In this document: piece by piece, positions 1,719-53,989 of the stretch
Position numbering within the stretch: position 1 is the stretch's first letter
Layout: every line of letters begins with the position of its first letter
NCBI GenBank assembly: GCA_945935525.1
Contig: CAMERI010000002.1
Location: 188,482 to 252,481 of the forward strand
DNA from: an uncultured bacterium
GTDB taxonomy: Bacteria; Bacillota_I; Bacilli_A; RF39; UBA660
Length of the DNA: 64,000 nucleotides
Reading direction: 5' to 3'
Program-made: the position numbers and the translations under genes
Notes under the pieces: model-generated
Database searches by the model: none
Told to the model about the DNA's origin: nothing
The model's input: the letters and a program-made list of their open reading frames with translations, nothing else

Positions 1719-3497
1719 TTAGTCTCCTAGTAACTCTTTTAGTTTTTGTTCAAGTTCTTCTTTTTTGAATGGTTTTGGTATGTAGTCAGTAAAACCTGTT
1801 TTTATATATTTATTCTTTGATGTAGATAAAGCATCTGCGGTTAGAGCTACTACTTTAGTATTAAAGTTCTTGTTAGATTTTAATTTCTTTAATGTATCTA
1901 TTCCATTCATATCAGGCATCATTATATCCATAAGTATTAGGTCATAGTGTTCACCATTATTAATCTTATCTATGCATTCTATACCTCTTTCACAAGTATC
2001 TAGTTCTATATCATAAATATTTAATAATCTTTTAAGAATTCTATTATTAAGTCTATCATCATCTACTAGTAATATTCTTTTGTTAATAAACTTTGTTGTA
2101 TTAGTTTGTTCTATAGTTTCAAGTTCATTTTTTAATCTTTGAGGTATTTTAATAGTGAATACACTACCACTTCCATAATAACTACATACTGTTATAGTTC
2201 CGCCTAATAGGCTTACTAAATCTTTTGTTATTAATAGTCCTAGTCCATCTCTATCAACATCATTATTTATCTCATTATCTATGTCACTACCATTAAATAT
2301 CTTATTTAAGTCTTCTGATTTAATACCTATTCCAGTATCTTTTATTTCAATAATTAAATTACATATATCACTTACTATTTCACTATTTATAGTTAGAGAT
2401 ATACTACCTTTATCAGTATATTTAAATGAATTATCTAATACATTATTTATAATTTCTTTTATTTTAGTTTTGTCTCCAAATAAGTTTTGAGGTGTATTTT
2501 CAGAAATGGAATACTTAAATATTACATTTTCTTTATTATATTTTTTAATATTCATTTTGATTAGTTTTTCTACTGTTTCTTTAATACTATAATTCTTTTC
2601 TTTAAGATCATAGATTTTATTTTCAATCTTATTTATATCTATTACATTACCTACGATATCTAAAAGTGATGAAGATGAATCTACAATATCATTTATAGTA
2701 TCTTTAAATTCAGGTGGTAAATTATAATTCTTTATTTCATCTATAGAAGATATAATTGAAGCAAGTGGTGTTCTTAGTTCATGACTTATATTACTTAAGA
2801 AATCCGTTTTATTCATATTAGCCTTTAGAGCTCTAAGTCTTAAATTATTAATTATTTCATATTCTTTTAAAGCTGGATTTTCTATAGTTAGAAATACTAA
2901 GTATGTTATAAATAAAAGTATAGTTGTTATTATATTAAGTTCATACTTTAATTCTAAAAATGTACATATAGATAATAGTATAAGTGCTACATATATATAA
3001 TTACATTTAGTAATAGATATTACATTTCTATTAAGTATGGTTCTTAAAAATAAAATACATAACATAGATGGAAGTAATACTTTAAAAATATTTATAGAGT
3101 TTCCACTTAGATATATAAAATTAGTTGTATCTATATTAAGTGGTAAAAGTATAATAGATAAAGAAGATACTAATGTAAGAAGAGCATATAAAATCATTAT
3201 AGTTTTATTTAAAGTATCATCTTTTTTACTAATAAGAAATGTATAAACACTAAATATTGAGAACCAACATACTATAAATATTAAATATAGTTTAGTATAT
3301 ACTTCTAACATAACAGGTTTAAGTGTTAAAGTACTTAGAAAATTAATAATTAATTCTAAAATAAAACCTATAAGTAAACTAAGTGATAATATAAAGAATG
3401 TATTATTAGATAGTAAGTTATTTTTTTTCTTTATTTTAAAAACTAATATTAAAAGTAATGTAAACATTATACCTGTTATTATATATATTGTATTCAT
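1719..3497 (-). CDS. hybrid sensor histidine kinase / response regulator
   Basis: Multi-TM N-terminus; H-box SHELRTPL; HATPase motifs DTGIGI and GLGLLI; C-terminal receiver domain LLVDDD...DLILMDIMMP. Confidence 0.85.
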   Translation of the reverse strand: MNTIYIITGIMFTLLLILVFKIKKKNNLLSNNTFFILSLSLLIGFILELIINFLSTLTLKPVMLEVYTKLYLIFIVCWFSIFSVYTFLISKKDDTLNKTIMILYALLTLVSSLSIILLPLNIDTTNFIYLSGNSINIFKVLLPSMLCILFLRTILNRNVISITKCNYIYVALILLSICTFLELKYELNIITTILLFITYLVFLTIENPALKEYEIINNLRLRALKANMNKTDFLSNISHELRTPLASIISSIDEIKNYNLPPEFKDTINDIVDSSSSLLDIVGNVIDINKIENKIYDLKEKNYSIKETVEKLIKMNIKKYNKENVIFKYSISENTPQNLFGDKTKIKEIINNVLDNSFKYTDKGSISLTINSEIVSDICNLIIEIKDTGIGIKSEDLNKIFNGSDIDNEINNDVDRDGLGLLITKDLVSLLGGTITVCSYYGSGSVFTIKIPQRLKNELETIEQTNTTKFINKRILLVDDDRLNNRILKRLLNIYDIELDTCERGIECIDKINNGEHYDLILMDIMMPDMNGIDTLKKLKSNKNFNTKVVALTADALSTSKNKYIKTGFTDYIPKPFKKEELEQKLKELLGD

Positions 3498-6589: not shown

Positions 6590-8502
6590 TATTTACCCCC
6601 TTTATAATCATCTTCAAGTGTGAATTCTACATTTTCTTCTATCCATTCTTTACGTACTTCTGAGTCATCTCCCATTAGGACTCCTACTCTTTTTTCAGCT
6701 AGTGCTTTATCATCTATTTTAATTTTAACTAATGTACGAGTAGCTGGATCCATTGTTGTTTCCCATAACTGGTCTGCATTCATTTCACCAAGTCCTTTAT
6801 ATCTTTGAATAGTGTATTTTCCTTTGAATGTATCTTTAAATTCATTTAATTCTTCATTTGTATTTATATATTTTTTATCTTTACCATATTTAACTAAGTA
6901 TAGAGGTGGCACTGCTATATAAAGCATTCCATGTTCTATTAAGTCTCTCATCCATCTATAGAAGAATGTTAGAAGTAATGTTTGAATGTGAGCACCATCA
7001 TCATCGGCATCGGTCATTATTATAACTTTTCCATAGTTTGATTCAGTGTAGTCAAATTCTGCTCCTACTCCTGCTCCTATAGCGTGAACTATTGTATTTA
7101 TTTCTTCATTTTTGAAAAGGTCAGCTACTGTTGACTTTTCACAGTTAATTATTTTACCTCTTAGTGGTAGTATTGCTTGATGACGTTTATCACGACCACT
7201 TTTTGCTGTACCACCTGCACTGTTTCCTTCGACTATAAATAGTTCGTTTTTATTATATTCTTTGCTTTGAGCAGGTGTTAGTTTACCAAGTAATACTTTT
7301 TCACGGCCACTCTTGCCTTTTCCAGCTCTTGCTTCTGCTCTTGCTTTTCTTGCTGCTTCACGGGCTAGTTTACTCTTTAAAGCTTTATCCATTATAGTAG
7401 TTGCTGCTTCTTTATTTTCTTCTAAATAATAAGATAACTTTTCATATACTATACTTTCTACTACTGTTCTTGCTTGAGGAGTACCTAATTTACCTTTAGT
7501 TTGTCCTTCAAATTGTAATAGATTTTCTGGTATTTTTAAACTTATTATTGCTGTTAAGCCTTCACGAGTATCAGTTCCATCTAATCCATCTTTACTCTTT
7601 AATAAGTTGTTACTTTTAATATATTCATTAAATACTTTAGTAAGTGCTGTTTTATATCCTACTTCGTGACTACCACCATCTACAGTTTTAACATTGTTAA
7701 CAAATGACATTATGTTTTCATTATATGTGTTTGTGTACTGCATTGCGATATCTACTTCAATACCATTCTTTTCTCCACTAAAGCTTATTGTTTTATGTAG
7801 TGGTTCTTTTCCTTCATTTACATATTCTACGAATGATACAAGTCCATTGTCATAACTAAATACACTATGTTTATCATCTTCTTCATCAATAACTTCCATA
7901 GTTAGTCCATTTATAAGAAAAGCACTTTCTTGCATTCTTTCACATATAGTTGTGTAACTGAATCTAGCATTACCAAATATTTCTTCGTCTGGGAAGAATT
8001 CAACAGTAGTACCAGTTTGTTTAGTTGTACCTATTTGTTTTAGTTCTTTATCTACGTGTCCACCATTTTTAAATGATATTTCACATATTTTACCTTCTCT
8101 ACATATAGTTACTTTCATCCATTTAGATAATGCGTTAACCACTGATGAACCTACTCCGTGAAGACCACCAGATACTTTGTATCCATCTGTTTCAAATTTA
8201 CCACCTGCGTGTAATACAGTGTAGATTACTTCTGGAGTTGATTTTCCTGATGAGTGTTTTCCAATTGGTACTCCACGTCCTTCATCACTTACTCTTACGC
8301 TTCCAATTTTAGTAAGTGTTACTGTTATTTTTTTACCATAACCATTGATAGCTTCATCTATTGAGTTATCAACAATTTCCCATACTAAATGGTGAAGTCC
8401 TCTTTTATCAGTACTTCCTATATACATACCAGGTCTTTTTCTTACTGCTTCAAGACCTTCTAATATCTTAATTGATTTTTCATTATATTCTGCCATAATC
8501 AC
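6589..8502 (-). CDS. parE: DNA topoisomerase IV subunit B
   Basis: GHKL ATPase plus TOPRIM domain; N-terminal SIKILEGLEAVRKRPGMYIGST is ParE-like; 1-nt overlap with parC. Confidence 0.8.
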   Translation of the reverse strand: MIMAEYNEKSIKILEGLEAVRKRPGMYIGSTDKRGLHHLVWEIVDNSIDEAINGYGKKITVTLTKIGSVRVSDEGRGVPIGKHSSGKSTPEVIYTVLHAGGKFETDGYKVSGGLHGVGSSVVNALSKWMKVTICREGKICEISFKNGGHVDKELKQIGTTKQTGTTVEFFPDEEIFGNARFSYTTICERMQESAFLINGLTMEVIDEEDDKHSVFSYDNGLVSFVEYVNEGKEPLHKTISFSGEKNGIEVDIAMQYTNTYNENIMSFVNNVKTVDGGSHEVGYKTALTKVFNEYIKSNNLLKSKDGLDGTDTREGLTAIISLKIPENLLQFEGQTKGKLGTPQARTVVESIVYEKLSYYLEENKEAATTIMDKALKSKLAREAARKARAEARAGKGKSGREKVLLGKLTPAQSKEYNKNELFIVEGNSAGGTAKSGRDKRHQAILPLRGKIINCEKSTVADLFKNEEINTIVHAIGAGVGAEFDYTESNYGKVIIMTDADDDGAHIQTLLLTFFYRWMRDLIEHGMLYIAVPPLYLVKYGKDKKYINTNEELNEFKDTFKGKYTIQRYKGLGEMNADQLWETTMDPATRTLVKIKIDDKALAEKRVGVLMGDDSEVRKEWIEENVEFTLEDDYKGGK

Positions 8503-8523
8503 CTAATCTCCATCTCATATTAT

Positions 8524-8564
8524 ACAAAAATAAACAAAAAGTGTAAACATTAACTTTACACTTT
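8524..8564 (-). terminator. Rho-independent terminator after the LRR surface protein gene
   Basis: 10-bp perfect stem AAAGTGTAAA / TTTACACTTT, followed on the minus strand by a T-rich tract. Confidence 0.5.
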
Positions 8565-8573
8565 TATTTACTA

Positions 8574-11500
8574 TTACTTTGCTCCCCAAGTGACACATCC
8601 GTTTGTTACATTACTTGTATTGTTTTTTACACAGGTTACGTCTGATGCCCATCCCCAGCCTGGTGAATAAGTTGTAAATTCATTACTCGATGATTTTCCT
8701 TGAATAGTAACTTGTTTTAAATTATTATTTCTAAATGCATCCCAAGATATTGATGTTATACTTTTCGGTATTGTTACACTTGTTAAATTATTGCTTTCAA
8801 ACGCATGACTATTTATTGTCGTTACTCCACTTGGTATGATAATATTCTTATTCTTTCCACCGTAACTTACTATTGTTGTTTTATCTTCACTGCCATCAGT
8901 ATTTCTTTTATAAATAAATGCTTGTGAATCTGATAGTTCATTATTATTGAATGCTTGTTCTTGTATTGACGATACACTATTTGGTATTGTTATACTTGTT
9001 AATTTATTATTTGCAAATGCTGAGTTTCCTATCGTTGTTACACTACTTGGCAGTGTTATACTTGTTAATTTATTATTTGCAAATGCGTAATTGCCTATTG
9101 ATGTTACACTATTTGGTATCGTAATGCTTGTTAAATTATTATTTGAAAATGCATAAATACCTATCGATGTTATTTTATTTGATAAAGTTACACTTGTTAA
9201 ATTATTATTTAAAAATGCATAATTTCCTAATGTCGTTACACTATTTGGAATTGTTAAGTTTGTTAACTTATTATCTGAAAAGGCCGAATTTCCTATTGAT
9301 GTAACTCCGCTTGATATTGTTAAACTTGTTAATTTATTGGCTCGAAATGCATTTTCTCCTATTGAGGTTACACTACTTGGAATTATTACACTTGTTAAAT
9401 TATTATTTTCAAATGCTGAACTTCCTATTGATGTTACACTATTTGGAATTATTACACTTGCTAAATTATTTTTTTCAAATGCTGAACTTCCTATTGTTTT
9501 TATACCATTTGGTATTTTAACTTCTTTATTTTTTCCACCATAACTTATAATTGTTGTTTTGTCTTCACTGCCGTCAGTATTTCTTTTGTAAATAAATGCT
9601 TGCGAATCTTCTAATTGATTATTGTTAAAAGCACTATGTCCAATGCTTTTTACACTCTTTGATATATTTATATTTGTCAATTTATTATTTTCAAATGCTG
9701 AACTTCCTATTGATGTTACGCTATTTGGTATTGTTATACTTGTTAATTCATTATTTTCGAATGCCCAATTCCCTATTGATGTTACACTATCTGGTATTGT
9801 TATACTTGTTAATTTATTATTTGAAAATGCATAAATACCTATTGATGTTACACTACTTGGTATTGTTATACTTGCTAAGTTATTATTTGCAAACGCTGAT
9901 CCACCTATTGATGTTACACTATTTGGTATTGTTATACTTGTTAATTCATTATTTTTGAATGTATAACTTCCTATTGATGTTACACCATTTGGTATTGTTA
10001 TACTTGTTAATTTATTATTTTTGAATGCTGAACCTCCTATTGATGTTACACTATTTGGTATTGTTACACTTGTTAATTTATTATTTGAAAATGCCGAATT
10101 CTCTATTGATGTTACACCATTTGGTATTGTTACACTTGTTAAATTGTTATTTGAAAATGCATTACTTCTTATTGTTGTTACACTATCTGGTATTGTCACA
10201 CTTGTTAATTTATTATTTGAAAAAACACCGTATTCTATTGTTGTTACACTATTTGGTATTGTTACATTTGTTAATTTATTATTTGAAAATGCATTACCTT
10301 CTATTGATGTTACACCATTTGGTATTGTTACACTTGTTAATTTATTATTTGAAAATGCCGAATTCTCTATTGATGTTACACCATTTGGTATTGTTACACT
10401 TGTTAAATTATTATTTGAAAATGCATTACCTTCTATTGTTGTTACACTATTTGGTATTGTTACACTTGTTAATTTATTATTTGAAAATGCATAACCTCCT
10501 ATTGATGTTACACCATTAGGTATTTCTACTTTTTTATTCTTACCACCATAACTTACTATTGTTGTTTTATCTTCACTACCATCATTATTCCTTTTGTATA
10601 TAATAGCTTGTAAATCTTCTAATTGATTATTATTAAAAGCTCCGTTTCCAATATTTTTAACACTCTTTGGTATATCTATATTTGTTAAATCATTATCTTT
10701 GAATGCATCATATGAAATATTCTCTATAGTATCAGGAATAATTACTTTCTTTAATCCTCGTCCTGCAAAAACATTTGAATAATATGAGCATGCATAGTGT
10801 TTTTTTTCTAATGATGTTATTTTTACTCCATTTACTTTTGAAGGAATTATTAATTCTTTAGGGCATTTATCATTTGTATTTGAATAATACTCTATAATAG
10901 CACTTCCAGATACACCAAAACATTCATCTGGTGGTACTATAAGATTCTCTATTGAATCTAATTTATTATCTTCTGTTAATTTAATTGTATTTGTAAATTC
11001 TGTTAGAGAACTGTCGATGTAAATTATTGAGTCATTTGTAATATTTGATTCTTTCTTTTGTGTTATTTCAATATTCTTTGTATCTAGTGTATTTCCATTG
11101 CTATCTTTTACATATAATTCGTGTTTACCTGAAACTATTCCCGATATTCTTACATAACCATTTTCATCGGTAATACCACTTTTTACGTCTGAATGTAGTT
11201 CTACTGTCATATTAGCAAGTGGATTATCATTTTGATCAACAACTCTTGTATACATAGTATATTCTGTTTGAAATGCTAGTTTTGTAGAATCTTCTATGTT
11301 AATTACACCATTAAATTTCTTTCCTTGATTGTAGTCTTGTGCTTTATTTAATTCTTTAAATTCGAAATTTAATGTTATAGTTTGTACTTCACCTGGATAT
11401 ATTATTATATTTTCAGATATTGCATTCTTGCTTGAAGGAACTGTTTTATTTTGAAAATTTATTGTCGCACAAGTATCAGTACTTGATTCACATTCTAAAC

Positions 11501-11813
11501 TCATAACTAGTTCATCATTAGTTATCTCATTTACTAAATCTTTCCAGAAAATAGTATAAAATGCATCTAATGTACCGGTATTTTCTATAGTGATTGTTTT
11601 TGTAGCTTTCCATCCTGGACTTATGTTTACTCCATTAATTGCTGTACCATCAGTATAAGTTAAACTTAATGTACCTGTTTGTACTACTTGGTCTTTTACA
11701 TCTTTATTAACTAAAGTTGCTGCAAAATATGCATATGAGAAACCAATTGTCGCTAAAAATAAAAATACTATTCCTATTCCAAATACTATTTTTTTATCAT
11801 TTAAATTTTTCAT
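8574..11813 (-). CDS. large secreted/cell-surface protein with about 30 BspA-type leucine-rich repeats
   Basis: N-terminal TM/signal segment; central array of about 23-aa repeats ([22 protein letters not shown]); a 26-aa module [26 protein letters not shown] occurs three times. Confidence 0.8.
8890..10560 (-). repeat. tandem 69-bp coding repeats (LRR units) inside the surface-protein gene
   Basis: Units of the form cctattgatgttacac(t/c)atttggtattgttacacttgttaatttattatttgaaaatgc recur many times; this periodicity generates the spurious plus-strand ORFs 9311-10519. Confidence 0.7.
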
Positions 11814-13887: not shown

Positions 13888-13964
13888 GGGCCTGTAGCTC
13901 AGCTGGTTAGAGCGTTCGTCTGATAAGCGAAAGGTCGATGGTTCAAGTCCATTCAGGCCCACCA
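13888..13964 (+). tRNA. tRNA-Ile (anticodon GAT)
   Basis: Cloverleaf with 7-bp acceptor stem GGGCCTG/CAGGCCC, anticodon loop CTGATAA, encoded CCA. Confidence 0.9.
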
Positions 13965-13973
13965 TTAATAAAT

Positions 13974-14049
13974 GGCCCGTTGGTGAAACGGTTAACACAC
14001 ACGCCTTTCACGCGTGCATTTATGGGTTCAAATCCCGTACGGGTCACCA
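13974..14049 (+). tRNA. tRNA-Glu (anticodon TTC)
   Basis: Acceptor stem GGCCCGT/ACGGGTC, anticodon loop CTTTCAC, encoded CCA; close to Bacillus tRNA-Glu. Confidence 0.9.
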
Positions 14050-14145: not shown

Positions 14146-15435
14146 TTACATTTCTTTTAGTGTTTTTACTAAGTCATCTATTTTAACTAATTCTTGATTA
14201 CCAGTTATCATATCTTTAAGAGTTACTGAGTTTTGTTTAAGTTCATCTTCTCCAATGATAATAACTTTATCAATATTTTCTCTATTAGCAGTATTCATAG
14301 CTTTCTTTAGTTTTATATTATTAAGTTCTGTAAGTACTCTATATCCATTTTCTCTTAACATACTTGATATTTCAAATAAGTTTTTATCATTTGTGAATGC
14401 ATATACATAAATATCATATTTCTTTAATGTTTCTGACCATTTTTCCTTTAATAAAGCATAAATAGGTTCTAAGCCAAATGACATACCTATAGCTGGATAT
14501 TCTTCTCCATTGTGTAAGAATTTAGTTATAATATTATCATATCTTCCTCCTCCACCTAGAGCTGACTTAAATTCTCCGGTTCTATCAAATACTTCCCATA
14601 CACATCCAGTATAGATTTCAAGTCCTCTTGCTAAGAAAGGTTTAAATACACATATATCTAAATTTAAATCTTTAATTAGTTTATTTAAATCATTTAGTTC
14701 TTTTAATCCTTCACTTAAAAGTTCTACGTTTGTATCTTTAAGTTCATTAGTCAATTCATCTAAACTCAATTTAAAGTATTCAAATATCTTATCAACATTT
14801 TCTTTAGAAGTACAATCTTCTAGTTCTTCTTCAATGTCTTCTCTTTCTAGTTTATCTAGTTTATCAACTAATGTAATGAACTCTCCAACTCTTTCTTTTG
14901 GTACATTACAGTATTCTAAAAGCCCACTTAAGAATTTTCTATTGTTGTATCTTATTTCAATATCAATATCAAATTTTTGGAATGCTTCTTTTACCATCAT
15001 AAAGTATTCTATTTCTGCATAAGGTGATTCTGTTCCACAAGCATCTACATCACATTGATAAAATTCACGTGCTCTTCCTAGTTTAACAGGACCATCTCTA
15101 AATACTTTACCTATTTCATATCTTTTGAATGGTAATATTAGTCCTTTATTCATACCAATTACTTTTGAGAATGGTACAGTTAAATCATAACGTAAACCTA
15201 TATCTCTAAGTCCTTGATCTTTAAATTTATATACTTCTTTTAGTATTTCAGCTCCACCTGCATATTTACTCGCTAGTAAATCATAATAACATAATATTGG
15301 TGTCTCAAGTGGTAAGAAACCATATTTTTCAAATGTACTTTTTAAGGTATCAGTGATTTTATTTCTAATAATTTGTTCTTCTGGTAAGAAGTCACTAGTA
15401 CCTTTAAGATTCATTAATTTAAATTCTTCTTTCAT
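14146..15435 (-). CDS. hisS: histidyl-tRNA synthetase
   Basis: Class II aaRS motifs including GGGGRYD; C-terminal anticodon-binding domain. Confidence 0.85.
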   Translation of the reverse strand: MKEEFKLMNLKGTSDFLPEEQIIRNKITDTLKSTFEKYGFLPLETPILCYYDLLASKYAGGAEILKEVYKFKDQGLRDIGLRYDLTVPFSKVIGMNKGLILPFKRYEIGKVFRDGPVKLGRAREFYQCDVDACGTESPYAEIEYFMMVKEAFQKFDIDIEIRYNNRKFLSGLLEYCNVPKERVGEFITLVDKLDKLEREDIEEELEDCTSKENVDKIFEYFKLSLDELTNELKDTNVELLSEGLKELNDLNKLIKDLNLDICVFKPFLARGLEIYTGCVWEVFDRTGEFKSALGGGGRYDNIITKFLHNGEEYPAIGMSFGLEPIYALLKEKWSETLKKYDIYVYAFTNDKNLFEISSMLRENGYRVLTELNNIKLKKAMNTANRENIDKVIIIGEDELKQNSVTLKDMITGNQELVKIDDLVKTLKEM

Positions 15436-15893
15436 TATCTACTTCTTCCTTCACTTATTTTTTCTTCATAAATTGAACCATTCATATAGTTCATATATAA
15501 TTTTTGATTATAATTCTTTTTAAATTCTTCTTCAATAATTATTAATTTAGTAAGCAGAGCTTTATATTCACTTACTTTCATATATTCTTTATATTTTTTA
15601 ATAACTATTCCTTTTAATTTATTTATTTCATCTAGTACCATACCTACGTCGCCTTCAGTGGTATCTTCATCATTTAATATACGTAACATAAATTTAATAA
15701 CTCTATCTATCTTTTTATTTATTCTTTGTTTTATATAGGCATCTCTAAGTTCTGGGTCAATTAGTATTACTTTTTTGGCTTTGATAGTAAGTCCTGGAAC
15801 ACCATTTTTAGGTTCGACGTTAAGACCTACCATATTAACACTATAGTATACTAGTTTCATATCTTTGCCATTTTTTTCTATTACGTATTTCAT
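15435..15893 (-). CDS. hypothetical protein (152 aa)
   Basis: ORF between trmD and hisS; no recognisable motif. Confidence 0.35.
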   Translation of the reverse strand: MKYVIEKNGKDMKLVYYSVNMVGLNVEPKNGVPGLTIKAKKVILIDPELRDAYIKQRINKKIDRVIKFMLRILNDEDTTEGDVGMVLDEINKLKGIVIKKYKEYMKVSEYKALLTKLIIIEEEFKKNYNQKLYMNYMNGSIYEEKISEGRSR

Positions 15894-52868: not shown

Positions 52869-52945
52869 TGGTCGGGAAGACAGGATTTGAACCTGCAACC
52901 CCTTGGTCCCAAACCAAATGCTCTACCAAGTTGAGCCACTTCCCG
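52869..52945 (-). tRNA. tRNA-Pro (TGG)
   Basis: Cloverleaf; anticodon loop TTTGGGA; encoded CCA. Confidence 0.85.
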
Positions 52946-52951
52946 ATCTAA

Positions 52952-53028
52952 TGGTGCGCCCAATAGGAGTCGAACCCATAACCTTTTGATCCGTAGTCAA
53001 ATGCTCTATCCAATTGAGCTATGAGCGC
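52952..53028 (-). tRNA. tRNA-Arg (ACG)
   Basis: Anticodon loop CTACGGA; acceptor stem GCGCTCA/TGGGCGC. Confidence 0.85.
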
Positions 53029-53095
53029 GTTTAAATTTCCCTCGGAATCGCTTTGAAATTTTCTGTCTTGCATTTGTATTATTAATTTAACAAAA

Positions 53096-53171
53096 TGGTG
53101 GCTTCAGTTGGAATCGAACCAACGACACCAAGATTTTCAGTCTTGTGCTCTGCCAACTGAGCTATGAAGCC
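53096..53171 (-). tRNA. tRNA-Phe (GAA)
   Basis: Anticodon loop CTGAAAA. Confidence 0.85.
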
Positions 53172-53174
53172 ATT

Positions 53175-53250
53175 TGGCGGTTCCGACGGGACTTGAACCC
53201 GCGATCCCTCGCGTGACAGGCGAGTGTGATAACCACTACACCACGGAACC
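53175..53250 (-). tRNA. tRNA-Asp (GTC)
   Basis: Anticodon loop CTGTCAC; discriminator G. Confidence 0.85.
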
Positions 53251-53253
53251 ATT

Positions 53254-53330
<77 letters not shown>

Positions 53331-53358
53331 ATATTTGAAATTCACTGTACTTATCATA

Positions 53359-53451
53359 TGGCGGAGGAAAAGGGATTCGAACCCCTGCGCCAATTTCTTG
53401 ACCTCCCGGTTTTCAAGACCGGTCCCTTCAACCAGACTTGGGTATTCCTCC
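53359..53451 (-). tRNA. tRNA-Ser (TGA)
   Basis: Long variable arm; anticodon loop CTTGAAA; discriminator G. Confidence 0.85.
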
Positions 53452-53466
53452 AATAATATTTAAAGT

Positions 53467-53555
53467 TGGTGCCCCAGATCGGACTTGAACCGATATGAGC
53501 TTTTACACTCGCAGGATTTTAAGTCCTGTGCGTCTACCTATTCCGCCACTGAGGC
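53467..53555 (-). tRNA. tRNA-Leu (TAA)
   Basis: Long variable arm; anticodon loop CTTAAAA; Leu-type D-arm. Confidence 0.85.
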
Positions 53556-53563
53556 ACATAAAT

Positions 53564-53639
53564 TGGTGTCTCGCTGGGGATTCGAACCCCAGACCCCTTG
53601 ATTAAAAGTCAAGTGCTCTACCGGCTGAGCTAGCGAGAC
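53564..53639 (-). tRNA. tRNA-Lys (TTT)
   Basis: Anticodon loop CTTTTAA. Confidence 0.85.
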
Positions 53640-53658
53640 GTTCTATATGATAAATTTT

Positions 53659-53734
53659 TGGTTGCCTCGGCTGGATTCGAACCAGCGGAATGCAAGAGTC
53701 AAAGTCTTGTGCCTTACCACTTGGCTACGAGGCA
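53659..53734 (-). tRNA. tRNA-Gln (TTG)
   Basis: Anticodon loop CTTTGAC; U1-A72 as usual for Gln. Confidence 0.85.
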
Positions 53735-53744
53735 AAATTACAAG

Positions 53745-53828
53745 TGGTGGAGAGAGGTGGATTCGAACCACCGAACCCGAAGGAACAGATTTACAGTCTG
53801 CCGCGTTTAGCCTCTTCGCTATCTCTCC
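53745..53828 (-). tRNA. tRNA-Tyr (GTA)
   Basis: Long variable arm; anticodon loop CTGTAAA. Confidence 0.85.
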
Positions 53829-53831
53829 AAG

Positions 53832-53907
<76 letters not shown>

Positions 53908-53912
53908 AATTA

Positions 53913-53989
53913 TGGTGGGCGATGAGAGACTCGAACTCCCGACCCCCTGCTTGTAAGGCAGATGCTCTAACCAACTGAGCTAATCGCCC
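53913..53989 (-). tRNA. tRNA-Val (TAC)
   Basis: Anticodon loop CTTACAA; acceptor stem GGGCGAT/ATCGCCC. Confidence 0.85.

What the first reader, a model, noticed from the sequence alone, without database searches (positions are those of the whole stretch)
8574..11813. 1079-aa BspA-type LRR surface protein with a three-fold super-repeat architecture
About thirty 23-aa LRR units are grouped into three blocks. Each block is introduced by the same 26-aa module ([26 protein letters not shown]). The repeat DNA is 80-90% identical between units, which gives it recombinational length-variation potential. The N-terminus has a TasA/camelysin-like signal (SYAYFAAT).

BspA-like LRR proteins mediate host adhesion in oral and gut anaerobes. 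This is the largest accessory gene in the window.
Basis: seen in the sequence. Interest (0 to 1): 0.5.

Follow-up and report, generated by a model that had tools for sequence, protein, structure and literature searches.

The report
LRR adhesin on a TasA-like handle
This is a real 1079-residue exported leucine-rich-repeat protein from an uncultured gut bacterium. The repeat array itself is ordinary, but it hangs on an N-terminal TasA/camelysin-like module that hundreds of related proteins use as a shared handle for different surface domains.

Summary
The ORF is real: 8574..11813 on the minus strand, 1079 aa, and the largest in the window.

Several details need correcting:
- The unit is 22 aa (66 nt), not 23.
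- There are 27 canonical units plus one degenerate unit.
- The three 'introducing modules' are 28-aa beta-hairpin inserts. They split the solenoid into unequal runs of 2(+1), 14, 9 and 2 units, so it is not an even three-fold super-repeat.
- DNA identity between units averages 81% in the first long run and 73% in the second.

The LRR part is firmly BspA-type: Pfam LRR_5 at 3e-171, an AF2 model with pLDDT 91.5, and best folds that are all solved LRR_5 proteins. The hairpin is a common element of this LRR subfamily, seen in 32 of 120 homologues.

The new information is at the N-terminus. Residues 1-178 are a SipW-type signal plus a compact TasA/camelysin-like domain (PF12389). This domain is always N-terminal in about 1,700 protein clusters from uncultured gut Bacilli, where it is fused to LRR_5, DUF285/PARCEL, Flg_new, DUF6273 or enzymes. 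A sipW gene sits beside a family member in the closest reference genome.

There is no wall-sorting signal or SLH domain. Array length does vary between close relatives. How the protein is tethered (fibre or membrane) is inferred, not shown.

The parts
8574..11813 (-). Complete gene, 1079 aa plus TAA stop
   Evidence: ORF list. Translation. An identical copy lies on independent contig L001.
11819..11826 (-). Shine-Dalgarno-like AAAGGAAG, 5 nt upstream of the ATG. The start codon lies inside the last 17 nt of the upstream GH3 gene.
   Evidence: Read from the sequence. ORF coordinates. Co-transcription with DUF5684-GH3 is inferred.
11730..11813 (-). Signal peptide, aa 1-28: a KK-rich n-region, a hydrophobic core at aa 8-27, and the motif S-Y-A|Y-F. 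Cleavage after A28 is predicted by analogy with TasA (TWA|AF).
   Evidence: This is the only hydrophobic segment in the protein. SYAYF is the most conserved stretch in the family, with mean entropy 0.55 bits. AF2 models a helix at 4-35. Cleavage itself is inferred.
11280..11729 (-). Compact TasA/camelysin-like beta-sandwich domain, aa 29-178, with the family signatures GTLxLxYTDG, NIKPG..TK..V.NTG and QNYNQGKxFxGV
11040..11261 (-). Transthyretin-like (CarboxypepD_reg) beta-sandwich spacer, aa 185-258
10746..11039 (-). Small beta region and Cys-containing LRR N-terminal cap, aa 259-356, including one degenerate first unit
   Evidence: AF2 strands at 263-309, at lower confidence. Cys at 298, 317 and 342. 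The match to the N-cap of other family LRR proteins was made by eye.
10614..10745 (-). Two canonical 22-aa LRR units before the first hairpin, aa 357-400
   Evidence: Unit register.
10530..10613 (-). Hairpin insert 1, aa 401-428 ([26 protein letters not shown])
   Evidence: This copy lies outside the stretch that was modelled; it is taken to form the same hairpin as inserts 2 and 3, inferred from its 85-87% DNA identity to them.
9606..10529 (-). Run of 14 LRR units, aa 429-736. It holds the 93-nt exact duplicate.
   Evidence: Mean unit DNA identity is 81%.
9522..9605 (-). Hairpin insert 2, aa 737-764
   Evidence: AF2 models two antiparallel strands, FIYKR and KTTIISYGG, inside a continuous solenoid.
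8928..9521 (-). Run of 9 LRR units, aa 765-962
   Evidence: Mean unit DNA identity is 73%.
8844..8927 (-). Hairpin insert 3, aa 963-990
8712..8843 (-). Last two LRR units, aa 991-1034
8574..8711 (-). C-terminal cap, aa 1035-1079 ([30 protein letters not shown]), with two Cys and no anchor motif
   Evidence: The cap is conserved in P0001, P0002, P0167 and P0194. There is no LPXTG motif and no hydrophobic tail. Model confidence is lower here.
8538..8564 (-). AT-rich hairpin (AAAGTGTAAA / TTTACACTTT) followed by a T-run. It is a likely terminator of the operon and overlaps the promoter-like TTTACA-17-TATAAT of the downstream GyrB/ParE-type gene.
   Evidence: Read from the sequence. Promoter-like site at 8547-8519. 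The terminator scan did not list it because it has too few G-C pairs, so this is inferred.

Best explanation
The gene encodes an exported binding protein built from four parts. First comes a SipW-type signal peptide, then a compact TasA/camelysin-like beta-sandwich 'handle', then a transthyretin-like spacer. Last is a long rigid BspA-type LRR solenoid of 27-28 units of 22 aa, interrupted three times by a conserved beta-hairpin.

The LRR scaffold positions are almost invariant. Five positions per unit (11-13, 16 and 19) are highly variable, as expected for a ligand-binding surface.

There is no C-terminal anchor, so the protein must be held at the surface through its N-terminal module. My preferred reading is as follows. 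The signal is cleaved after S-Y-A. The TasA-like domain then tethers the protein by beta-strand complementation to other TasA-like subunits. This would resemble a natural version of engineered TasA-passenger fusions, or FimH on a type 1 pilus.

The array changes length by recombination between units.

Shown here: the ORF, the repeat anatomy, LRR_5 membership, PF12389 membership of the N-domain, the modular family, sipW next to a family member in the closest reference genome, and length differences between close relatives.

Inferred: export, cleavage, the mode of tethering, and ligand binding.
For: LRR part:
- LRR_5 scores 3.4e-171.
- The AF2 model of aa 691-1079 is one continuous solenoid, pLDDT 91.5 and pTM 0.87, with the inserts as hairpins.
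- The top PDB folds are all LRR_5 surface proteins: 4gt6, 4cp6 (PcpA), 4fs7, 4fdw, 4fd0 and 4h09.
- Variable positions are concentrated at 11-13, 16 and 19 of the unit.

N-terminal domain:
- PF12389 is above its cut-off, and 62 of 63 relatives hit it.
- TasA is the best PDB sequence hit.

The family:
- 852 hits in the 90% clusters and 1,691 clusters at 50% identity. In all 150 best hits listed the domain lies at the N-terminus.
- C-terminal domains include LRR_5, DUF285/PARCEL, Flg_new, DUF6273, GH18 and a GDSL lipase.
- There are at least 7-12 copies per genome in gut 'Bacilli/Mollicutes' MAGs.

SipW:
- An archaeal-type signal peptidase sits directly upstream of a family member in L014 and L031. 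TIGR02228 scores 82.4 bits against a cut-off of 51.85, and the SipW model scores 100 bits.
- L014 comes from the same MAG as L006. L006 is syntenic with the window and 93.3% identical to it.

Precedents from papers:
- TasA polymerises through its post-cleavage N-terminal donor strand, and SipW cleaves TasA and TapA (PMC9674648).
- Engineered TasA with C-terminal enzyme fusions is secreted and forms thicker fibres (PMC12744683).

Length variation:
- P0002 (464 aa) and P0167 (663 aa) lie at the same locus, with flanks about 95% identical.
- Sampled TasA-handle LRR proteins range from 3 to 27 units.
Against: - No sipW and no second family member lie inside the 64-kb window. Their presence in this genome is inferred from a 93%-identical relative.
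- The Pfam match covers only positions 4-78 of the 196-position model. The BsaA and TasA NCBIfam models score far below their cut-offs.
- The stretch that would be the donor strand (aa 31-47) is not specially conserved. Conservation peaks at the cleavage motif instead.
- The N-terminal AF2 model is only moderate: pLDDT 71 and pTM 0.47.
- No fibre-forming shaft subunit has been identified. Some 'stand-alone' members may be split genes.
- No ligand, expression or localisation data exist.
Confidence: 0.55

Rival explanations
1. Membrane-tethered adhesin. The N-terminal hydrophobic helix is not cleaved and acts as a signal anchor. The TasA-like and transthyretin-like domains then serve only as a stalk that pushes the LRR solenoid away from the cell, and no fibre is involved.
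For: The protein has one hydrophobic segment (aa 8-27) preceded by a KK-rich n-region, and no other anchor. AF2 models one long helix at 4-35. There is no sipW in the window. Family genes are scattered among housekeeping genes rather than sitting in pilus-like operons. The donor-like stretch is not specially conserved.
Against: The most conserved element of the whole family is the S-Y-A-Y-F motif at the end of the hydrophobic segment. It lines up with the TasA cleavage site, and its small residues at positions -3 and -1 fit cleavage. A sipW-type peptidase lies next to a family member in the closest reference genome.
Confidence: 0.25
2. The repeat count, or the single-gene state, is an assembly artefact. 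The array may be collapsed or expanded. Alternatively, two tandem paralogues with identical N-terminal halves may have been merged into one gene.
For: In the sister strain L002 the orthologous array is broken by a 100-N scaffold gap. L002 also has two tandem paralogues whose nt ~100-800 are 100% identical to each other. The window gene sits where gene 1 does but carries the LRR of gene 2. The contig of the closest reference MAG ends inside the gene.
Against: The longest exact repeat inside the gene is 93 nt, and most units differ at 10-25% of bases. From general knowledge of de Bruijn assemblers, which commonly run k up to about 127, I infer that such k-mers are unique across the array. A separate SPAdes contig, L001, gives exactly the same 5,482 nt. 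The reading frame is intact through all 3,240 nt. Both ends of the L002 orthologue show the same architecture, including the first and last hairpins.
Confidence: 0.12
3. Spore-surface protein. The TasA-like handle directs the protein to the spore coat or crust, so the LRR array decorates spores rather than vegetative cells.
For: [quoted passage not shown] The organisms carry sporulation and germination genes. The paralogous LRR locus lies directly upstream of cotE.
Against: The window copy is flanked by GH3 and a GyrB/ParE-type topoisomerase gene, not by spore genes. Other family members sit next to sepF/divIVA/dnaE. The cotE adjacency is seen at only one locus. There is no regulatory evidence.
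Confidence: 0.06

Closest known systems
BspA-type LRR surface proteins (Pfam LRR_5). Examples: Tannerella forsythia BspA, pneumococcal PcpA (4cp6), and the gut-bacterial structures 4gt6, 4fs7 and 4h09.
   Same: It is the same repeat family by HMM and by fold. It has the same solenoid with variable surface positions. The beta-hairpin insert 'FIY.R..DGS.D...IVSYGG' recurs in 32 of 120 homologues. From my own knowledge it also resembles the 'dGvLy.kd.t.Li.Yp' element common in LRR_5 proteins; I did not test that here.
   Different: The unit here is a very regular 22 aa with N-N-x-L instead of the usual C-x-x-L. There are no Big_2 domains and no T9SS C-terminal domain (as in BspA), and no choline-binding repeats (as in PcpA). 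Attachment is through an N-terminal TasA-like module. The array is the longest among the homologues sampled.
TasA / CalY (camelysin) / BsaA biofilm-fibre proteins with SipW
   Same: It has a signal peptide ending in a small-x-A | aromatic-F motif. It shares sequence signatures (GTLxL, N.KPG..TK.....N.G, and a QGxxxxxxF-type C-terminal strand). PF12389 membership is met, and the fold matches the TasA fibre. sipW lies next to relatives.
   Different: The domain is about 150 aa, against about 230 in TasA. It is followed by 900 aa of passenger domains. There is no tapA-sipW-tasA-like operon at this locus. The NCBIfam TasA and BsaA models score far below their cut-offs. Polymerisation has not been shown.
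Two-domain pilus adhesins (FimH-type), and LRR_5 proteins fused to a prepilin-type N-terminus
   Same: The logic is the same: a filament-integration domain plus a binding domain. Close LRR homologues (up to 61-66% identical) carry a type IV prepilin N-terminal methylation motif (PF07963) instead of the TasA-like module. The same LRR domain is therefore mounted on a filament-subunit-type N-terminus (a prepilin motif) in other organisms.
   Different: The assembly chemistry differs, and here the domain order is handle first, binding domain last. No chaperone-usher or type IV pilus genes lie nearby.
Group B streptococcal LrrG/HupY and the Listeria internalins
   Same: They have 22-aa LRR units, and NF047961 gives a partial match (360 bits).
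   Different: The score is far below the 1250-bit cut-off. There is no LPXTG anchor. The InlA model scores only 27 bits against 1600.

Membership tests
BspA-type LRR (Pfam PF13306, LRR_5) | HMM match above the curated cut-off | tested here: met
   560.8 bits against a cut-off of 27.7, in 7 stretches.
BspA-type LRR (Pfam PF13306, LRR_5) | Right-handed LRR solenoid fold like the solved LRR_5 proteins | tested here: met
   AF2 pLDDT 91.5. The Foldseek top six entries are all LRR_5 structures, at E=1e-9 to 6e-8.
BspA-type LRR (Pfam PF13306, LRR_5) | Surface exposure and adhesion to host or other cells | not testable with these tools
   Only a signal peptide and the family analogy are available.
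TasA/camelysin family (Pfam PF12389, Peptidase_M73) | HMM match above the curated cut-off | tested here: met
   24.0 bits in the whole protein and 29.9 bits on aa 1-180, against a cut-off of 22.5. Only model positions 4-78 of 196 are covered. 62 of 63 relatives hit the model, best E=9e-15.
TasA/camelysin family (Pfam PF12389, Peptidase_M73) | Jelly-roll or beta-sandwich fold like TasA | tested here: inconclusive
TasA/camelysin family (Pfam PF12389, Peptidase_M73) | A dedicated SipW-type signal peptidase encoded nearby | tested here: not met
   There is no SipW motif in the 64-kb window. The feature is met at a paralogous locus of the closest reference MAG (L014, same MAG as the syntenic L006) and in L031.
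TasA/camelysin family (Pfam PF12389, Peptidase_M73) | Fibre formation by N-terminal donor-strand exchange | not testable with these tools
   This needs a multimer prediction or an experiment. Conservation of the candidate strand is unremarkable.
BsaA family SipW-dependent matrix protein (TIGR04090) / TasA equivalog (NF046066) | HMM score above the curated cut-off | tested here: not met
   23.2 bits against 60, and 18.3 bits against 450.
LrrG/HupY adhesin (NF047961) | HMM score above the cut-off, plus an LPXTG wall anchor | tested here: not met
   360 bits against 1250. There is no LPXTG motif.
Internalins (NF033189, InlA) | HMM score above the cut-off | tested here: not met
   27.2 bits against 1600.

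The most novel reading that the evidence does not exclude
The compact TasA-like N-terminal domain may be a general, previously undescribed surface-display handle in uncultured small-genome gut Bacilli. After SipW-type cleavage it would join, by donor-strand exchange, dozens of paralogous proteins per genome into or onto TasA-type fibres. These proteins carry LRR, PARCEL/DUF285, Flg_new, lectin-like or enzyme C-terminal domains. The window's gene would then be an extreme, rapidly length-varying adhesin subunit of a natural 'decorated TasA fibre'. That would be the natural counterpart of engineered TasA-fusion living materials.
Probability: 0.3. Interest if true: 0.7.

Novelty: new variant of a known kind. 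Interest (0 to 1): 0.42.

Why it matters
BspA-type LRR proteins are common, so the repeat array alone adds little. The more useful result concerns how these uncultured, small-genome gut Bacilli mount their surface proteins. They appear to use one shared TasA-like N-terminal module with a SipW-type signal, rather than sortase, SLH or lipoprotein anchors.

If that module works by donor-strand exchange, TasA-type fibres would be modular adhesive organelles and not only biofilm scaffolds. These organisms' host-binding domains could then be listed simply by searching for the handle. The family also gives a natural test set for how large a passenger a TasA-like subunit can carry.

I found no paper in the searchable library that links TasA-like or camelysin domains with LRR, BspA or DUF285 domains. 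That library is incomplete.

Tried and rejected
- Paralogues or sipW inside the window: a phmmer search of all six-frame ORFs and a motif search found none.
- More strains for repeat counting. The N-terminal search found only P0001 and P0002 as near-full-length relatives. A scan of JGI metagenomes with the junction region found nothing. Within-species repeat-number variation at this exact locus therefore could not be measured. I used the second orthologous locus instead.
- The NCBIfam hits to HupY/LrrG, Gli349 and InlA are repeat-driven and far below their cut-offs. I rejected them as family assignments.
- The Pfam hits to FNIP, RHS_repeat and A2M inside the array are low-complexity or repeat cross-matches.
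- The plus-strand ORFs of 157 and 164 aa inside the array (10021-10519) are antisense products of the repeat, not genes.
- I asked whether the donor-strand-like stretch is unusually conserved. It is not, so I do not use conservation as support for fibre assembly.
- The neighbours of sipW in L014 that carry SYAWF-type signals gave no Pfam or NCBIfam family. No shaft subunit could be named.
Full report

The window has a single ORF at 8574..11813 on the minus strand, 1079 aa, and it is the longest in the window. It has a Shine-Dalgarno-like AAAGGAAG 5 nt upstream of the ATG. Its start lies inside the last 17 nt of the upstream GH3 gene. After the TAA stop comes an AT-rich hairpin with a T-run, then a promoter-like site for the downstream GyrB/ParE-type gene.

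Tandem Repeats Finder reports a 66-nt period, and multiples of it, over 8950-10524. Anchoring on the repeat consensus gives 27 canonical units, each exactly 22 aa, not 23. One further degenerate unit lies at the N-terminal end.

Three 28-aa inserts break the register, with cores starting at aa 402, 738 and 964. Their cores are [52 protein letters not shown] and [26 protein letters not shown], and they are 85-90% identical in DNA. The runs of units between them are 2(+1), 14, 9 and 2. The 'three-fold super-repeat' is therefore really one array punctuated at irregular intervals.

Unit DNA identity averages 81% in the 14-unit run, 73% in the 9-unit run and 74% overall. The longest exact repeat is 93 nt, present twice, four units apart.

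An independent ENA contig (L001, 5,482 nt) is 100% identical across the gene and its flanks.

**2. The LRR part**

Pfam LRR_5 ('BspA type') matches at 3.4e-171. I modelled aa 691-1079 with an alignment of 55 homologues. The result is one continuous solenoid with pLDDT 91.5 and pTM 0.87. Each insert in it forms a two-stranded antiparallel hairpin (FIYKR and KTTIISYGG) before the next unit.

The best PDB folds are the solved LRR_5 surface proteins: 4gt6, 4cp6 (PcpA), 4fs7, 4fdw, 4fd0 and 4h09.

Within the 22-aa unit, the scaffold positions (I3, P4, V7, I10, A14, F15, N18, L20) are nearly invariant. Positions 11-13, 16 and 19 carry 1.6-2.6 bits of entropy, and almost all of the differences there are non-synonymous. 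This is the pattern of a fixed scaffold carrying a variable surface.

The hairpin is not peculiar to this gene. It occurs once or twice in 32 of the 120 best LRR homologues. The number of hairpins rises with the number of units in relatives: 27 units with 3 hairpins here, then 19/2, 17/2, 14/2, 10/1 and 3-5/0.

**3. The N-terminal part**

Residues 1-28 are a signal peptide and the only hydrophobic segment in the protein. It ends in S-Y-A-Y-F. Residues 29-178 form a beta-sandwich with pLDDT about 85.

- On its own this segment scores 29.9 bits on PF12389 (Peptidase_M73, the TasA/camelysin family; cut-off 22.5). Of 63 relatives, 62 hit the same model, best E=9e-15.
- A profile of the family finds TasA (5of1, 8aur) as its best PDB sequence matches at E=7e-4. 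The alignment pairs GTLxL...N.KPG..TK.....N.G with TasA residues 4-51 of the mature chain.
- The NCBIfam BsaA and TasA models score well below their cut-offs. This is a distant and compact relative, about 150 aa against about 230.

Residues 185-258 are a transthyretin-like CarboxypepD_reg domain.

There is no LPXTG motif, no SLH domain and no C-terminal hydrophobic tail. The C-terminal 45 residues are a Cys-containing cap that is conserved in relatives.

**4. The family**

- The N-terminal 324 aa find 852 proteins in the 90% clusters.
- The 180-aa domain alone finds 1,691 clusters at 50% identity, 699 of them at E<=1e-10. In all 150 best hits listed the domain starts at residue ~1-30 of the protein. 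Total lengths among those 150 range from 90 to 1,378 aa.
- In a census of 101 representatives, 83 hit PF12389. The C-terminal domains were: CarboxypepD_reg 22, LRR_5 12, DUF285/PARCEL 11, Flg_new 10, Flg_new_2 7, DUF6273 3 and Big_1 3. Single cases carried GH18, a GDSL lipase, Laminin_G_3, RCC1 and others.
- In GTDB species representatives, all 77 loci returned come from uncultured gut 'Bacilli', 'Mollicutes', 'Mycoplasmatota' or 'Clostridium sp. CAG:524'-type MAGs. There are at least 7-12 copies per genome.
- These organisms have genomes of about 1.5 Mb and carry sporulation genes.
- The closest reference is CAJJPX01 ('uncultured Clostridium sp. ERR321635-bin.24'). Its contig 14 (L006) is syntenic with window 21824-11287 and 93.3% identical to it, and it ends inside the gene.

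**5. SipW**

No sipW lies in the window. In L014, which comes from the same MAG as L006, and in L031, a 184-aa protein lies immediately upstream of a family member. It carries the motifs TGSMEP...GD...THR...GDNN. It scores 82.4 bits on TIGR02228 (cut-off 51.85) and 100 bits on the SipW model. That cluster also holds two more proteins with SYAWF-type signals and no known family.

Within the family, the most conserved stretch of the N-domain is the cleavage motif (0.55 bits). The next most conserved is YNQGKxFxGV (0.58 bits).

**6. How it probably works**

[quoted passage not shown] The new N-terminus of TasA (residues 28-38) then inserts as a donor strand into the next subunit (PMC9674648). Engineered TasA with C-terminal enzyme passengers is still secreted, and it forms fibres whose diameter grows with the size of the passenger (PMC12744683).

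The window protein has the same order of parts: signal, TasA-like domain, passenger. It has no other anchor.

I therefore favour export, cleavage after A28, and tethering through the TasA-like handle. The transthyretin-like domain would act as a spacer and the long LRR solenoid as the binding element.

The same LRR domain is found elsewhere on type IV prepilin-type N-termini, on T9SS C-terminal domains, on Flg_new repeats and on dockerins. This fits the view that it is a portable binding module mounted on whatever display system the host uses.

The steps from 'has the domains' to 'is cleaved, joins fibres, binds a ligand' are all inference. The plainer alternative is an uncleaved signal anchor with the TasA-like domain as a stalk, and it remains quite possible. 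The candidate donor strand is not especially conserved, and family genes are scattered among housekeeping genes.

**7. Length variation and assembly**

At this locus, the sister strain L002 (flanks about 95% identical) has two tandem paralogues.

- Gene 1 (P0001) is 513 aa, with about 5-6 units and no hairpin.
- Gene 2 is the true orthologue of the window gene. It shows the same first and last hairpins, but its array is interrupted by a 100-N scaffold gap.
- The two L002 genes are 100% identical to each other over nt ~100-800. The window gene occupies the position of gene 1 but has the LRR of gene 2, at 82% against 49% identity.
- The single gene here is therefore either a genuine deletion or an ancestral state, or it is a merged pair. 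Only long reads can tell.

Within the array, collapse is unlikely because no exact repeat exceeds 93 nt.

Real length variation is shown at the second orthologous locus (ABC transporter - gene - cotE). There, P0002 (464 aa) and P0167 (663 aa) have about 95% identical flanks. Their difference lies almost entirely within the LRR array: about 200 residues, including the one hairpin insert.

**8. Comparison with what is known, and verdict**

The protein is a member of LRR_5 and, by HMM, of PF12389. It is not a member of the LrrG/HupY, internalin, BsaA or TasA equivalog families.

Three full-text searches found no paper that links TasA-like or camelysin domains with LRR, BspA or DUF285 domains. The ABP paper maps PF12389 across bacteria and archaea; none of the passages my term search returned from it mentions such fusions, and I did not read it in full.

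The LRR array as first described is ordinary. The TasA-like handle family is a new variant of known kinds and is worth a focused follow-up. Its mechanism is unproven.

Noticed in passing
L002:10001-13603 (sister strain), compared with window 8574-11813: The sister strain has two tandem paralogues between GH3 and the GyrB/ParE-type gene. Their nt ~100-800 are 100% identical to each other. The window has one gene with the position of gene 1 and the LRR of gene 2. This points to recent duplication, gene conversion or deletion at this locus, or to an assembly merge.
   Followed up: partly
L014:7509-15798 (CAJJPX010000015.1): A sipW-type peptidase (9338-9892) is flanked by a 603-aa TasA-handle/DUF285 protein. 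Two further proteins with SYAWF-type signal motifs (8216-9319 and 14632-15798) match no Pfam or NCBIfam family. They are candidate unknown SipW substrates, or possibly fibre subunits.
   Followed up: partly
L084:5001-6739: A 189-aa stand-alone TasA-handle protein (P0063) overlaps by 4 nt the start of a 390-aa ORF with no Pfam family. The same arrangement is seen in the two contigs shown and in the 3 similar places not shown. It is either a stable split gene or a two-gene unit.
   Followed up: no
window 52872-53989 (-) and 13888-14046 (+): A cluster of 12 tRNA genes explains the local rise in G+C. A pair of tRNA genes also lies just upstream of the DUF5684-GH3-LRR operon.
   Followed up: no
window 10021-10519 (+): Two overlapping antisense ORFs of 157 and 164 aa lie inside the array. 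They are Leu/His-rich products of the repeat's reverse complement and are not genes.
   Followed up: yes
P0143, P0125 and other hits: Close LRR homologues (up to 61-66% identical) carry a type IV prepilin N-terminal methylation motif (KNAFTLIELL...) instead of the TasA-like handle. These are pilin-like proteins carrying an LRR domain.
   Followed up: partly
window 1719-3497 (-): A hybrid histidine kinase with a C-terminal receiver domain lies next to a family-2 glycosyltransferase.
   Followed up: no
L003 / L081:11777-17301: Downstream of the paralogous LRR gene and cotE lie three large paralogous ORFs of 538, 754 and 546 aa with no confident Pfam family; the 538-aa ORF has only a weak DnaJ hit. 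They cross-match each other at 64-69% nucleotide identity.
   Followed up: no
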